Assembly: GCA_947258425.1 (NCBI GenBank) | Contig: CAMYIG010000049.1 | Span: forward strand, 640 to 64,639 | Origin: an uncultured Gammaproteobacteria bacterium | GTDB lineage: Bacteria; Pseudomonadota; Gammaproteobacteria; SZUA-140 | Direction: 5' to 3' | Length of the DNA: 64,000 nt | Made by a program: the position numbers and the translations under genes | Notes under the pieces: model-generated | Database searches by the model: none | What the model was told of the DNA's origin: nothing | The model's input: only the letters and a program-made list of their open reading frames with translations | Shown: piece after piece, positions 47,514-57,138 of the stretch | How the letters are laid out: every line of letters begins with the position of its first letter | How positions within the stretch are numbered: position 1 is the first letter of the stretch

Positions 47514-48422
47514 ATGACAATGCAAAAACAAATTTTGAAAAACAATTACCGTTCAACCATCGCTCGCAAGCTTTTCACTACGAAAATACTCTGGTTGTGT
47601 TCACTCTTTATGGTAAGTCTTTTCAATGTGTCAGCGGCCACCGCTATCACTAGCATCACGCCCATTGCTAACCCCTCTGATGATGCCCGTGAGGCGATGT
47701 CGACTGGAAATGTGGATCTTTTGAGCCGTAACCTCCCCATTAGTTTTGATGATAACGGTAATGGAGATCAACGCATTGGGCTACGTTTTGCGGTCAATAT
47801 CCCCAGCAATAGAACTATCACCAGAGCCTATATACAGTTTACAGCCGATAAGGCCTCAAGCGGCTCATCAAACCTCTACATAAATGCTGAATACCGCAAC
47901 GATGCAGCACCCTTTGCCAGCAATGCCCTGGATATCTCATCACGACCCCTGACGCCTTCAACGATTAATTGGACACCCCACTCCTGGAATACCGTGGGTC
48001 ACAACGGCTTTTCCGAACGCACCCCCGACCTCAGCGCGCTGATACAGGAAGTCATCAATTTAGAAAACTGGCAGGCGAATAATCATATTGCATTTATCAT
48101 CTATGGCAGTGGCACACGCACCGCAAAATCTTATGATGGTACGCTCGCCAGTTACGGTTCTACTGCACTCGCGCCTCAGCTACACATTGAATACAGTGAA
48201 AATAGCGCGCCCGAACCTGCGCCAACCCCCGTTGACCACCTCCCCGTCGCCAATGCGGATACGCTGACCACCGCCGAAGACACAACGGCCACCCTTAACG
48301 TACTCAGCAACGACACCGGCCTCGAAGACGGACTTACACCCCGGCCAGTGGCTTTTCAGGCACGGATACTTTTCAATACCACATCACTGATGCCGATGGG
48401 GATACCAGCAGCGCAGGGGTAA
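47514..48422 (+). CDS. Upstream fragment of modular secreted repeat protein A1 (signal peptide + module copy 1 + truncated cadherin-like repeat); same gene as 48431..50734
   Basis: Signal peptide (...LWLCSLFMVSLFNVSAATA). It carries the ~180-aa module (IGLRFAVNIPSN...AYIQFTADKASSG...WNTVGH...ERTPDLSALIQEVI...LAPQLHIEY). The frame is lost at 48332, where 70 nt present in the paralogous repeat (49429-49498) are missing. Confidence 0.7.
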   Translation: MTMQKQILKNNYRSTIARKLFTTKILWLCSLFMVSLFNVSAATAITSITPIANPSDDAREAMSTGNVDLLSRNLPISFDDNGNGDQRIGLRFAVNIPSNRTITRAYIQFTADKASSGSSNLYINAEYRNDAAPFASNALDISSRPLTPSTINWTPHSWNTVGHNGFSERTPDLSALIQEVINLENWQANNHIAFIIYGSGTRTAKSYDGTLASYGSTALAPQLHIEYSENSAPEPAPTPVDHLPVANADTLTTAEDTTATLNVLSNDTGLEDGLTPRPVAFQARILFNTTSLMPMGIPAAQG

Positions 48423-48430
48423 GTGTCACC

Positions 48431-55504: not shown

Positions 55505-55545
55505 TCGGCCCATTTCATCAGAACAAAGGCTAAAGGATAGTTACC

Positions 55546-57138
55546 ATGAACGCTTCAGTAAAATTCAGACTACTATTGCCAGCCCTGTTAATTTTCTTAT
55601 TCTGGAATAACAGTGCCATCGCGGCTATTTACTATGTTGCAACAACAGGGAGCAATCTGTTTGGCGATGGCACGTCTAATGACCCGTGGAAAACGATTGG
55701 TTATGGCATCGATAAAATGAAGTCGGGGGATACATTAATAGTAAAAGCCGGCATCTATCGGGGAAAAGAGAACTTCATCAACTCTCGCCTTTCTACACTT
55801 CCCAGCGGTGGCCCGGGAAACTACACTACCATCAAAGCAGAATCGCCATTCACTGCCATTATTAGCAACAGTGCGCCGTTAAACTACTATGATAATCTAT
55901 TACTCATCGAAGTAGATTATATCCACATCGATGGCTTTGTATTTAACATGATCAATCAGAAAGAACCGGAATACAATGCTGAAGTATTGGGTAATTATAA
56001 TAAAATCACCCAAAGTCTTTTCCGTAGAGAAGGCGATGTCAATGAATTTGGTGGCTGGGTATCGATACTGGGGGATTATAATCTCGTCGAAGATAGCGCA
56101 GGCGTAGGCGCTGCCCGCTATGGTTTCTATACAGGCGGCCCTGGCTCATCCGCCAGCCAGAATATTTTTCGTCGCATCGTTGCACGCGTTGACTATTCAA
56201 ATTCACTACAACCAAAATCTGCCTTTGCTGTTTACGGCAACAATGATGGCACCAATGTACGGGATGTCTTATGCCAGAACTGTATCGCGATCGATGGAAA
56301 CCGCGGCCCTAGCGGCTCCGAAGAAACCTATGGCGGTTTTTATTTCCCTAAAAATGCCGCCAATGTAACGGTACAAGGTAGCATCGTACTCAACAATGAA
56401 GCCGCACATGCCGGCTATTTTGCCAAAGAATTACACGGCGAAAATATCCGCTTAGAACATTCCATTGCATGGGGCGTTTATGGCACCTCATATATCGCAG
56501 GTGTCCGTGCCAATGGTGCGGGCGGCCCCTATTTTGGCATCGATCACATGACCATCGGTGCCAACCCCGTCGCCTATTACAACAAGGACAGTTCAACGCA
56601 ACGCGTGATGACCAATACCCTTTTTTATAACAATGCCACCACCAGTACTTCAGATTACGGCTGGACACGCAATTCACATAACGCCTTTTTTCCTGCAACA
56701 CAGGCCACAGGAAGTAATGCTGTGACGACCAATATTAATCTGAAATATATCCTTCGCGCGGAGAGTAACAGCGCACTGGTGGGCGCTGCCAGCGATGGCG
56801 GCAACATCGGTGCCGACGTCACAAAGCAATATGGGGTATCAGGCACGTTATGGGGAGAAGCGGGCTACAATCAACGCACCAGCGCTAATCTATGGCCATG
56901 GAAACACGAAGATAAGATCAAGGAATGGTTTGCTCTTCCTAATGTGCCGCCAACGGGTAACATCCCCGCGATTAATAATACAGTCCGAGGCTTTACTGTC
57001 GCCAATGATCAATTTGGCAAACAGATGACATTAACCCGTTACATCTGGCAGTACCTGGGTAACGAAATCCCCGCCGGCATCTATAGCTCCACATCAGTGG
57101 CAGCCCCTACAGGGCACGCTGTTGCACTGGTGCCATAG
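55546..57138 (+). CDS. Secreted right-handed parallel beta-helix protein B2 (paralog of B1)
   Basis: Signal peptide, then AIYYVATTGSNLFGDGTSNDPWKTIGYGIDKMKSGDTLIVKAGIY. 530 aa, about 75% identical to B1. Confidence 0.75.
   Translation: MNASVKFRLLLPALLIFLFWNNSAIAAIYYVATTGSNLFGDGTSNDPWKTIGYGIDKMKSGDTLIVKAGIYRGKENFINSRLSTLPSGGPGNYTTIKAESPFTAIISNSAPLNYYDNLLLIEVDYIHIDGFVFNMINQKEPEYNAEVLGNYNKITQSLFRREGDVNEFGGWVSILGDYNLVEDSAGVGAARYGFYTGGPGSSASQNIFRRIVARVDYSNSLQPKSAFAVYGNNDGTNVRDVLCQNCIAIDGNRGPSGSEETYGGFYFPKNAANVTVQGSIVLNNEAAHAGYFAKELHGENIRLEHSIAWGVYGTSYIAGVRANGAGGPYFGIDHMTIGANPVAYYNKDSSTQRVMTNTLFYNNATTSTSDYGWTRNSHNAFFPATQATGSNAVTTNINLKYILRAESNSALVGAASDGGNIGADVTKQYGVSGTLWGEAGYNQRTSANLWPWKHEDKIKEWFALPNVPPTGNIPAINNTVRGFTVANDQFGKQMTLTRYIWQYLGNEIPAGIYSSTSVAAPTGHAVALVP

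What the first reader, a model, noticed from the sequence alone, without database searches (positions are those of the whole stretch)
47514..57138. Tandemly duplicated two-gene cassette: giant modular surface protein + secreted beta-helix enzyme, in an AT-rich island between glnS and the thiolase gene
Two paralogous gene pairs (A1+B1 at 47514..52370 and A2+B2 at 52769..57138) share a strict architecture.

Gene A: a secretion signal (A1 ordinary, A2 lipobox LLVAGC), 2-3 copies of an unrecognised ~180-aa module, each module followed by 1-2 cadherin/VCBS-like ~90-aa repeats, and a C-terminal ~85-aa FN3-like domain beginning with the conserved CTSG(T/I)C(T/S)KTIR.

Gene B starts 8 bp (B1) or 42 bp (B2) after its A partner. 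It encodes a signal peptide plus an AIYYV..G.D..G....PWKTIGYGID.M.SGDT..VKAG.Y cap typical of right-handed parallel beta-helix glycan-degrading enzymes (pectate-lyase fold).

B1 and B2 are about 75% identical. The A proteins share modules but differ in repeat number.

The cassette is flanked by ~950 bp (46556..47513) and ~330 bp (57139..57466) of gene-free AT-rich DNA. It interrupts otherwise core gene order.

Hypothesis: a lectin/adhesin plus glycan depolymerase pair acting on a surface, matrix or host polysaccharide, diversified by duplication. I do not recognise the A module as any named domain family.
Basis: partly seen in the sequence, partly recalled or inferred. Interest (0 to 1): 0.85.

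Follow-up and report, generated by a model that had tools for sequence, protein, structure and literature searches.

The report
Duplicated glycan-binding protein plus beta-helix enzyme
Two neighbouring copies of a gene pair encode a large exported protein made of predicted sugar-binding modules and a secreted beta-helix enzyme of the polysaccharide-cutting fold; both belong to uncharacterised families, but this is a variant of a familiar bind-and-cut arrangement, not a new kind of system.

Summary
The two A+B gene pairs exist at the stated coordinates. Corrections are needed. A1 is broken by a 70-bp out-of-frame deletion near 48331. B1 and B2 are 72% identical. B1 probably starts at 50775. The "AT-rich island" is marginal (GC 0.480 against 0.508 outside).

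B is a right-handed beta-helix (pLDDT 93). It matches polysaccharide lyases and alginate epimerases about equally well and joins no curated family. It has a cluster of invariant Arg, Lys, Asp and Glu residues and no conserved His. Elsewhere, B homologues lie among exopolysaccharide-biosynthesis genes and are never next to an A module. The A+B pairing was found only in this lineage.

Most likely this is an exported device that binds and then cleaves an acidic polysaccharide. I rate it a new variant of a known kind, of moderate interest.

The parts
46556..47513 (.). Upstream spacer of 958 bp, GC 0.427. It has no ORF longer than 73 aa and no Rfam hit. Synteny with a close relative ends at its left edge, the glnS stop codon.
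47514..48422 (+). A1 N-terminal fragment of 302 aa: Sec-type signal peptide, module M1, then a truncated cadherin-like repeat that runs out of frame.
47664..48200 (+). A1 module M1, CBM96/DNRLRE-like beta-sandwich, subtype alpha.
48243..48430 (+). First Big_9/cadherin-like repeat of A1. It carries a 70-bp deletion relative to its sibling repeats, with the junction near 48331, and this shifts the reading frame.
48431..50734 (+). A1 C-terminal part. The ORF is 767 aa from a GTG, and the open frame starts at 48299. It has no signal peptide of its own. Layout: module, two cadherin-like repeats, module, one cadherin-like repeat, FN3-like domain.
48473..48994 (+). A1 module M2, subtype alpha, 73% identical to M1.
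49061..49618 (+). Two tandem Big_9/cadherin-like (tandem-95) repeats, period 279 bp, 85% matches.
49631..50155 (+). A1 module M3, subtype beta. This copy was used for the structure prediction.
50216..50479 (+). Single Big_9/cadherin-like repeat.
50480..50731 (+). C-terminal FN3-like domain of A1, starting CTSGTCTKTIR.
50775..52370 (+). B1, a secreted right-handed beta-helix protein. The longest ORF starts at 50742. The likely start is 50775, giving 531 aa.
52371..52768 (.). Spacer between the two cassettes, 398 bp, GC 0.329. It has no similarity to the upstream spacer.
52769..55504 (+). A2, 911 aa, TTG start, lipobox LLVAGC. Layout: module, two cadherin-like repeats, module, two cadherin-like repeats, FN3-like domain. 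The gene is intact.
52982..53497 (+). A2 module M1, subtype beta, 59% identical to A1 M3.
53573..54106 (+). Two Big_9/cadherin-like repeats. Boundaries are approximate.
54137..54661 (+). A2 module M2, subtype alpha, 63% identical to A1 M2.
54707..55249 (+). Two Big_9/cadherin-like repeats.
55250..55501 (+). C-terminal FN3-like domain of A2, 67% identical to that of A1.
55546..57138 (+). B2, 530 aa: signal peptide plus a right-handed parallel beta-helix. The AlphaFold model has pLDDT 92.9.
57139..57466 (.). Downstream spacer of 328 bp, GC 0.46. It is partly conserved upstream of the thiolase gene in relative L082.

Best explanation
The locus is a tandem, anciently duplicated two-gene operon for an exported device that binds and then cleaves a polysaccharide.

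Gene A encodes a large envelope or surface protein. A2 is a predicted lipoprotein and A1 has an ordinary signal peptide. The protein is a string of CBM96/DNRLRE-like beta-sandwich modules, held apart by Big_9/cadherin-like spacer repeats, and it ends in an FN3-like domain. Gene B lies 40 bp downstream and is presumably co-transcribed. It encodes a Sec-exported right-handed beta-helix enzyme of an uncharacterised family.

Shown here: the domain architecture, both folds, the duplication, the frameshift in A1, and the placement of B-family genes in other organisms among exopolysaccharide-biosynthesis genes.

Inferred:
- The A modules bind an acidic, uronic-acid-type polysaccharide multivalently.
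- B cleaves the same polymer, most likely by beta-elimination (a lyase), using the invariant Arg/Lys and Asp/Glu cluster at residues 182-295.
- The polymer is most likely the cell's own exopolysaccharide or matrix. A would then tether the matrix to the cell and B would trim or release it. This is functionally like RbmA/RbmC together with the lyase RbmB in Vibrio cholerae.
- Cassette 1 is decaying. A1 is a probable pseudogene, while B1 is still intact.
For: Module:
- The AF2 model has pLDDT 93.9.
- Foldseek independently ranks 7vbo (E 3.5e-6, TM 0.54) and 8wab (E 1.2e-4, TM 0.62) first.
- 6 of 68 family members weakly hit NF033679 DNRLRE_dom.
- Three Arg and three Trp are invariant or nearly so across the module family.

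B:
- The AF2 model has pLDDT 92.9 and is a beta-helix.
- The N-terminal cap matches PL6, a rhamnogalacturonan lyase and GH120 by sequence.
- Invariant or nearly invariant residues are E182, D183, R191, Y192, R209, R210, R214, D216, K224, Y230, Q244, N245, D250, K269, N283 and E295. No His column exceeds 57% conservation.

Context:
- 33 of 79 B-family loci, and 24 of the 41 loci of at least 15 kb, carry recurrent exopolysaccharide genes. These include GT4 glycosyltransferases, the XrtA/PEP-CTERM amidotransferase, the TIGR03013 priming transferase, WecB, GalE, an O-antigen-ligase-like protein, a deacetylase and an acetyltransferase.
- One module-plus-cadherin protein (P0134) also sits beside a Wzx/Wza/Bac_transf cluster.
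- The order A2-B2-thiolase is conserved in a relative whose B is 82% identical.
- Both B genes have the same RBS-like sequence about 40 bp after A.
Against: - No activity or ligand was tested.
- The window's own modules do not hit the DNRLRE model, and identity to the solved CBMs is only 14-15%.
- B matches lyases, epimerases, hydrolases, NosD and tailspikes at similar Z (21-27). It reaches no Pfam or NCBIfam cut-off. Lyase chemistry is therefore a preference, not a result.
- The conserved residues were not mapped onto the model, because no coordinates were available.
- No exopolysaccharide-biosynthesis genes lie next to the cassette in this window.
- No A module was found within 10 kb of any of the 79 other B-family loci. 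Co-function of A and B rests on adjacency in a single lineage.
- A1 is frameshifted.
Confidence: 0.55

Rival explanations
1. A foraging system. A2 is a surface glycan-binding lipoprotein, comparable to an SGBP. B is an outer endo-acting depolymerase that captures and cuts an exogenous acidic polysaccharide, such as alginate, pectin, a glycosaminoglycan or another microbe's EPS, as a nutrient.
For: The nearest solved relatives of the module come from catabolic alginate and chondroitin lyases. B resembles PL6, PL9 and PL31 catabolic lyases as closely as it resembles RbmB. The cassette is not next to EPS-biosynthesis genes in this genome.
Against: No TonB-dependent receptor, transporter or uronate-catabolism genes flank the cassette. 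The neighbours are leuBCD, folD and glnS on one side and a thiolase with a leucine-catabolism cluster on the other. In other genomes the B family sits among biosynthetic genes, not catabolic ones.
Confidence: 0.2
2. B is a non-lytic enzyme that modifies exopolysaccharide, for example a C5-epimerase like AlgG/AlgE or another tailoring enzyme. A is a matrix adhesin.
Against: No histidine is conserved in more than 57% of family members. To my knowledge, AlgG/AlgE epimerases depend on a catalytic His in a DPHD-type motif. There is no sequence match to the epimerase families.
Confidence: 0.12
3. The pair consists of pure adhesins. B is a non-enzymatic beta-helix surface protein, like PfbA or an autotransporter passenger. 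A is a cadherin-like adhesin for a host or an abiotic surface.
Against: A dense cluster of invariant charged residues on consecutive coils is conserved from Proteobacteria to Omnitrophota and archaea. That is typical of an active site, not an adhesin surface. There is no autotransporter barrel or sorting signal.
Confidence: 0.05
4. B is a phage tailspike or depolymerase inside a prophage remnant.
Against: No phage genes are nearby. B2 has no PHROGs hit, and B1 has only a marginal one at E 0.004 over 39 residues. B has a Sec signal peptide and lacks a tailspike N-terminal adaptor. The cellular A2-B2-thiolase order is conserved in a relative.
Confidence: 0.02

Closest known systems
CBM96, the alginate-binding module of Defluviitalea Dp0100 (PDB 7vbo), and the DNRLRE domain NF033679
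   Different: Identity is only 14%. The window's own modules give no hit to NF033679 or to any Pfam model. The signature motifs differ (DDAEE..SSDLEL, VGLRF, QRTPDL, GSGTR). The modules occur in a non-catalytic multi-module protein, not appended to a lyase. Ligand binding is untested.
Chondroitin-sulfate-binding CBM of a chondroitinase (PDB 8wab, annotated as a DNRLRE domain-containing protein)
   Different: Identity is 14-15%. The binding residues were not compared. The host-protein context is different.
Vibrio cholerae rbm cluster: matrix proteins RbmA (FN3 domains) and RbmC (lectin domains) with the beta-helix VPS lyase RbmB (PDB 9ozd; PMC11637428, PMC12993940)
   Different: No sequence homology was shown. 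The binding domains are of a different type. The cassette is not embedded in an EPS-biosynthesis cluster here. Equivalence of the catalytic residues was not tested.
Beta-helix polysaccharide lyase families PL9 (Pel9A, 1ru4), PL6 (chondroitinase B, 1dbg; 7o78; 6qps) and PL31 (6kfn)
   Different: No member reaches a curated cut-off. Sequence similarity is confined to the cap. B has a conserved C-terminal extension of about 100 aa (LWPW..ED.IK, TLTRYIWQYLGN) that was not matched to any known family.
Tandem-95 repeat, Big_9 and cadherin-like large adhesins (NF012211, PF17963; BapA/LapF/CshA-type)
   Same: The spacer repeats of A are clear members: 145 and 190 bits against a cut-off of 90.
   Different: Here the repeats alternate with CBM-like modules. 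A is only about 900-1070 aa long. Export is by a Sec or lipoprotein signal, with no type I secretion signal.

Membership tests
CBM96 / DNRLRE domain (NF033679) | Beta-sandwich fold superposable on 7vbo or 8wab | tested here: met
CBM96 / DNRLRE domain (NF033679) | Sequence match to the DNRLRE_dom model | tested here: not met
   The window modules give no hit, even at E up to 10. Only 6 of 68 family members hit weakly, with a best E of 1.7e-4.
CBM96 / DNRLRE domain (NF033679) | Ligand-recognition residues (Lys27 and Arg36 of 7vbo) and the structural Ca2+ site (Asp82, Asp142), per PMC9971899 | not tested
   No residue-level structural alignment or coordinates were available. Conserved Arg and Trp residues exist in the module family, but their equivalence is unknown.
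CBM96 / DNRLRE domain (NF033679) | Demonstrated binding to alginate or another polysaccharide | not testable with these tools
   Needs protein expression with affinity electrophoresis or ITC.
Beta-helix polysaccharide lyases (PL6, PL9, PL31, RbmB) | Right-handed parallel beta-helix fold | tested here: met
Beta-helix polysaccharide lyases (PL6, PL9, PL31, RbmB) | Sequence membership in a curated family model (PF22842 Pel9A-like, PF14592 Chondroitinas_B, NF041899 PelN) | tested here: not met
   B2 scores 18.8 bits on Chondroitinas_B against a cut-off of 24. B1 has no Pfam hit at E of 0.1 or better. PelN scores 25-36 bits against a cut-off of 740. Only 7-9 of 46 family members give weak hits.
Beta-helix polysaccharide lyases (PL6, PL9, PL31, RbmB) | Catalytic Lys/Arg base with acidic Ca2+ ligands lining the groove | tested here: inconclusive
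   Invariant R191, R209, R210, R214, E182 and D216 and nearly invariant K224, D183, D250 and K269 are present. They were not mapped onto the groove or superposed on known catalytic residues.
Mannuronan C5-epimerases (AlgG/AlgE) | Catalytic His in a DPHD-type motif (from prior knowledge of the family) | tested here: not met
Tandem-95 / Big_9 cadherin-like repeats | Score above the curated cut-off of NF012211 and PF17963 | tested here: met
   NF012211 scores 145.3 and 189.9 bits against a cut-off of 90. Big_9 scores 185 and 239 bits against a cut-off of 23.6.
Fibronectin type III domain (C-terminus of A) | Sequence match to FN3 | tested here: inconclusive
   No Pfam fn3 hit. Weak PDB hits to neogenin and fibronectin FN3 domains, E 0.013-0.07. 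Metagenomic relatives carry the common bacterial FN3 pattern W..N.EPDIAGY.VY within multi-FN3 proteins. No structure was predicted.
Bacterial lipoprotein (A2) | Lipobox [LVI][ASTVI][GAS]C at the end of a signal peptide | tested here: inconclusive
   The sequence LLVAGC follows a hydrophobic stretch. This was judged by eye only, because no SignalP or LipoP was available.
Prophage tailspike / depolymerase | Embedded among phage structural genes, or membership in a phage protein family | tested here: not met
   The neighbours are glnS, the thiolase and the leu genes. PHROGs gives no hit for B2 and one at E 0.004 over 39 residues for B1.
rbm-type matrix module (V. cholerae) | Location inside or beside the cognate EPS-biosynthesis cluster | tested here: not met
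   No EPS-biosynthesis genes flank the cassette in the window. Other B-family members do lie in such clusters.

The most novel reading that the evidence does not exclude
The B family would be a previously unclassified polysaccharide lyase family dedicated to processing XrtA/PEP-CTERM-type and related exopolysaccharides. It is spread across Proteobacteria, Omnitrophota, candidate phyla radiation (CPR) bacteria and archaea. The A module would define a very large new carbohydrate-binding module family, sister to CBM96 and the DNRLRE domain, with about 19,000 clusters at 50% identity. In this lineage the two would have been coupled into a self-contained device that tethers the cell's own matrix polysaccharide and trims it. 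Duplication and module shuffling would then have diversified the device: A1 has modules in the order alpha-alpha-beta and A2 has beta-alpha.
Probability: 0.3. Interest if true: 0.55.

Novelty: new variant of a known kind. Interest (0 to 1): 0.36.

Why it matters
If the inference holds, three things follow.

1. A very abundant extracellular domain that Pfam and NCBIfam do not cover would gain a likely function: binding acidic polysaccharides. It has 19,098 representative clusters and often occurs in 3-10 copies in giant surface proteins.
2. A beta-helix family that recurs in exopolysaccharide gene clusters of many phyla would become a candidate new lyase family. Such enzymes are of interest for biofilm or floc dispersal and for glycan biotechnology.
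3. A2-B2 is a compact, intact two-gene unit, so both proteins could be expressed and tested together.

The finding does not overturn any concept. A carbohydrate-binding protein working with a beta-helix depolymerase is a familiar arrangement.

Tried and rejected
- Direct sequence searches of the module against PDB found nothing meaningful. The single sequence and the profile gave only chance hits to siroheme synthase and IL-27 receptor alpha.
- Pfam and NCBIfam scans of the module found nothing for the window copies.
- I looked for an A module near B homologues in 79 GTDB loci with 10-kb flanks and found none.
- I looked for a B or a module near 17 metagenomic relatives of the FN3-like domain and found none. 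Those relatives are ordinary FN3 domains in unrelated proteins.
- An exact search of JGI metagenome contigs for the 70-bp deletion junction gave 0 hits, so the deletion could not be confirmed independently.
- The look-up of P0003 failed.
- The AlphaFold database library was unavailable for fold search.
- Rfam and the promoter/terminator scans of the spacers showed nothing above background.
- The spacers have no similarity to each other or to relatives beyond short stretches.
- Assembly collapse is an unlikely cause of the A1 frameshift. The junction shares only a 3-4-nt GAC(G) microhomology, too short for a k-mer-graph mis-join. It remains possible, because the sister MAG's contig breaks inside this repeat-rich gene.
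- The prophage reading was rejected.
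Full report
**Observation**

ORF listing confirms four large + strand genes between glnS (44867..46555) and a thiolase gene (57467..58651). They are A1 (47514..50734), B1 (ending at 52370), A2 (52769..55504) and B2 (55546..57138). The two cassettes are true paralogues but old ones. DNA 50255-52330 aligns with 55025-57098 at 69.6% over 2088 bp, and the A genes match only in mosaic pieces at 63-71%. B1 and B2 are 72% identical in protein.

A1 is not intact. It is called as two ORFs, of 302 aa and 767 aa. Translating all three frames shows one protein that changes frame near 48331, inside its first cadherin-like repeat. 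Alignment with the two sibling repeats shows a clean 70-bp deletion there. The 105 bp before the junction are 98% identical to 49324-49428. The junction itself shares only a GAC(G) microhomology. I therefore favour a real deletion, which makes A1 a pseudogene, over an assembly collapse. I could not confirm this independently: an exact search for the junction in JGI metagenomes found nothing. The nearly identical sister MAG contig (99.87% identity) starts only at window position 50734, so A1 did not assemble there.

B1 most likely starts at 50775. The sequence AGGATAGTTACAATG there mirrors AGGATAGTTACCATG before B2, and the sister MAG calls a 531-aa product. Both B genes then lie about 40 bp after their A partner.

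The "AT-rich island" claim is marginal. The cassette has GC 0.480 against 0.508 outside. The lowest equal-sized window elsewhere has 0.479. Only the spacers are AT-rich.

**Anatomy of A**

Pfam and NCBIfam recognise only the spacer repeats, as Big_9, Cadherin_4/5 and tandem-95. NF012211 scores 145 and 190 bits against a cut-off of 90. A profile built from the module finds five copies: three in A1 and two in A2.

The modules fall into two subtypes. Subtype alpha comprises A1_M1, A1_M2 and A2_M2, which are 59-73% identical to each other. Subtype beta comprises A1_M3 and A2_M1, which are 59% identical. Their order is alpha-alpha-beta in A1 and beta-alpha in A2, so modules were shuffled after or during the duplication.

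The C-terminal domain of about 84 aa shows weak FN3 similarity: neogenin at E 0.013 and fibronectin. Its metagenomic relatives are ordinary bacterial FN3 domains in unrelated proteins.

A2 has the lipobox LLVAGC. A1, B1 and B2 have Sec-type N-termini. These were judged by eye only.

**What the module is**

Sequence searches against PDB, Pfam and NCBIfam gave nothing for the window copies. An AlphaFold model built on a 68-sequence alignment is confident, with pLDDT 93.9.

The module is therefore a divergent branch of the DNRLRE/CBM96 fold group, not an orphan fold. It is also not rare. A profile search of 1.84 billion representative proteins found 19,098 hits at E up to 1e-3 and 6,538 at E up to 1e-30. 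Many are giant proteins with 3-10 copies. In them the module is combined with Big_9/cadherin repeats, PKD domains, T9SS sorting domains, PEP-CTERM signals, LamG domains or metallophosphoesterase domains.

**What B is**

- the PL31 alginate lyase 6kfn
- the AlgE-type C5-epimerases 8ja4 and 2pyg
- PL6 lyases
- NosD
- a GH87 glucanase
- the Vibrio VPS lyase RbmB (9ozd)
- chondroitinase B
- Pel9A

By sequence, only the N-terminal cap matches known structures: GH120, PL6 and a rhamnogalacturonan lyase. No family member reaches a Pfam cut-off. Seven to nine of 46 members hit DUF1565, Chondroitinas_B, Beta_helix or Pel9A-like weakly.

The family alignment shows a dense cluster of invariant or nearly invariant polar residues on consecutive coils: E182, D183, R191, Y192, R209, R210, R214, D216, K224, Y230, Q244, N245, D250, K269, N283 and E295. 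No conserved histidine exists. This pattern disfavours an AlgG/AlgE-type epimerase, which to my knowledge depends on a catalytic His. It fits a metal-assisted lyase acting on a carboxylated sugar polymer. A hydrolase is not excluded, because I could not map these residues onto the groove.

**Context**

B homologues occur widely, from Proteobacteria through Omnitrophota and candidate phyla radiation (CPR) bacteria to archaea. None carries a functional name.

I clustered the neighbours of B in 79 GTDB loci. The recurrent families were GT4 glycosyltransferases (27 loci), the XrtA/PEP-CTERM amidotransferase (12), WecB (8), GalE (7), the TIGR03013 priming transferase (7), an O-antigen-ligase-like protein (6), a polysaccharide deacetylase (5) and an acetyltransferase (5). 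Thirty-three of the 79 loci, and 24 of the 41 loci of at least 15 kb, have at least one of these. The B family therefore usually belongs to exopolysaccharide loci.

None of those loci contains an A module. Upstream neighbours in the closest loci are unrelated proteins. The A+B pairing was found only in this lineage:
- the sister MAG
- a relative whose B is 82% identical, where the order A2-B2-thiolase is conserved
- a third MAG, where a B copy and the 3' remnant of an A gene lie between transposase genes

One module-plus-cadherin protein elsewhere lies next to a Wzx/Wza/Bac_transf cluster.

A relative that is 89% identical over the 10.5 kb upstream (FimV, asd, leuBCD, LysR, folD, glnS) diverges exactly at the glnS stop codon. 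It then continues with other genes, not the thiolase. The cassette sits at a synteny breakpoint. It is not a simple insertion between glnS and the thiolase.

There are no phage genes nearby, and B has no meaningful PHROGs hit.

**Mechanism (inference)**

A is an exported protein, lipid-anchored in the case of A2. It would present two or three CBM-like modules on cadherin-like spacers for multivalent binding of an acidic polysaccharide. B would be co-expressed and secreted, and would cleave that polymer, most likely by beta-elimination.

Because the B family normally lives in EPS-biosynthesis loci, the cell's own matrix polysaccharide is the most likely substrate. The closest functional analogue is then the V. 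cholerae rbm cluster, in which the matrix proteins RbmA and RbmC accompany the lyase RbmB (PMC11637428; PMC12993940).

Foraging on an exogenous polymer is the main rival. The lack of adjacent uptake or catabolic genes counts against it. An epimerase or a pure adhesin role is less likely, and a prophage origin is effectively excluded.

**Verdict**

The module is a distant relative of a characterised CBM group and belongs to a huge family.

I rate the finding a new variant of a known kind and of moderate interest, at 0.36. Its value lies mainly in giving two abundant uncharacterised families a testable function.

Noticed in passing
window 48227-48431: A1 carries a 70-bp out-of-frame deletion inside its first cadherin-like repeat. 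The 105 bp before the junction are 98% identical to 49324-49428. A1 is probably a pseudogene, while the B1 gene next to it remains intact.
   Followed up: yes
L081 (GCA_945787125.1, contig CALZHW010000181.1) 3675-5882: A B homologue 77% identical to B2, together with about 570 bp of the 3' FN3-coding end of an A gene, lies between DDE transposase genes. The cassette can apparently be truncated or moved by IS elements.
   Followed up: partly
L088/L089 against window 36066-46557: A relative is 89% identical over 10.5 kb (FimV, asd, leuBCD, LysR, folD, glnS). It loses all similarity exactly at the glnS stop codon and continues with EamA, nitroreductase, glyoxalase and LysR genes. The position after glnS is a recombination or synteny breakpoint in this group.
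   Followed up: partly
loci L018, L029, L037, L040, L041, L045, L048, L050, L060, L065, L068, L072, L078, L079: B-family beta-helix genes occur in candidate phyla radiation (CPR) bacteria (Parcubacteria and other Patescibacteria) and in archaea (Pacearchaeota, Altiarchaeota, Methanosarcinales). They are often present in several tandem copies or fused into multi-thousand-residue proteins.
   Followed up: no
L002 9381-9941 and L003 11583-12044: A small protein of about 187 aa (cluster c23, with only a low-complexity PARP-like Pfam hit) lies directly next to the B homologue in the two closest GTDB loci. The window has no counterpart.
   Followed up: no
module-family members in alignment A2: Seven of 68 module-family proteins hit the NCBIfam model for the beta-L-arabinobiosidase HypBA2 (NF041578) at E down to 2e-17. 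This probably comes from a shared accessory domain and not from the module itself. I did not resolve it.
   Followed up: no
P0325 and P0331: Some proteins combine three copies of the module with a calcineurin-like metallophosphoesterase domain. The module is therefore not restricted to carbohydrate-active enzymes, which is a caution against assuming it binds glycans.
   Followed up: no
window 57467-62916: Downstream of the cassette lies what looks like a leucine/isovalerate catabolic cluster. The thiolase and the carboxyltransferase have Pfam support. The enoyl-CoA hydratase-like gene and two further ORFs were identified by eye only. The cluster looks unrelated to the cassette.
   Followed up: no
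window 32205-32289: A single tRNA-Leu (anticodon CAA) is the only RNA gene detected in the window. It lies about 14 kb from the cassette and is not at its border.
   Followed up: yes
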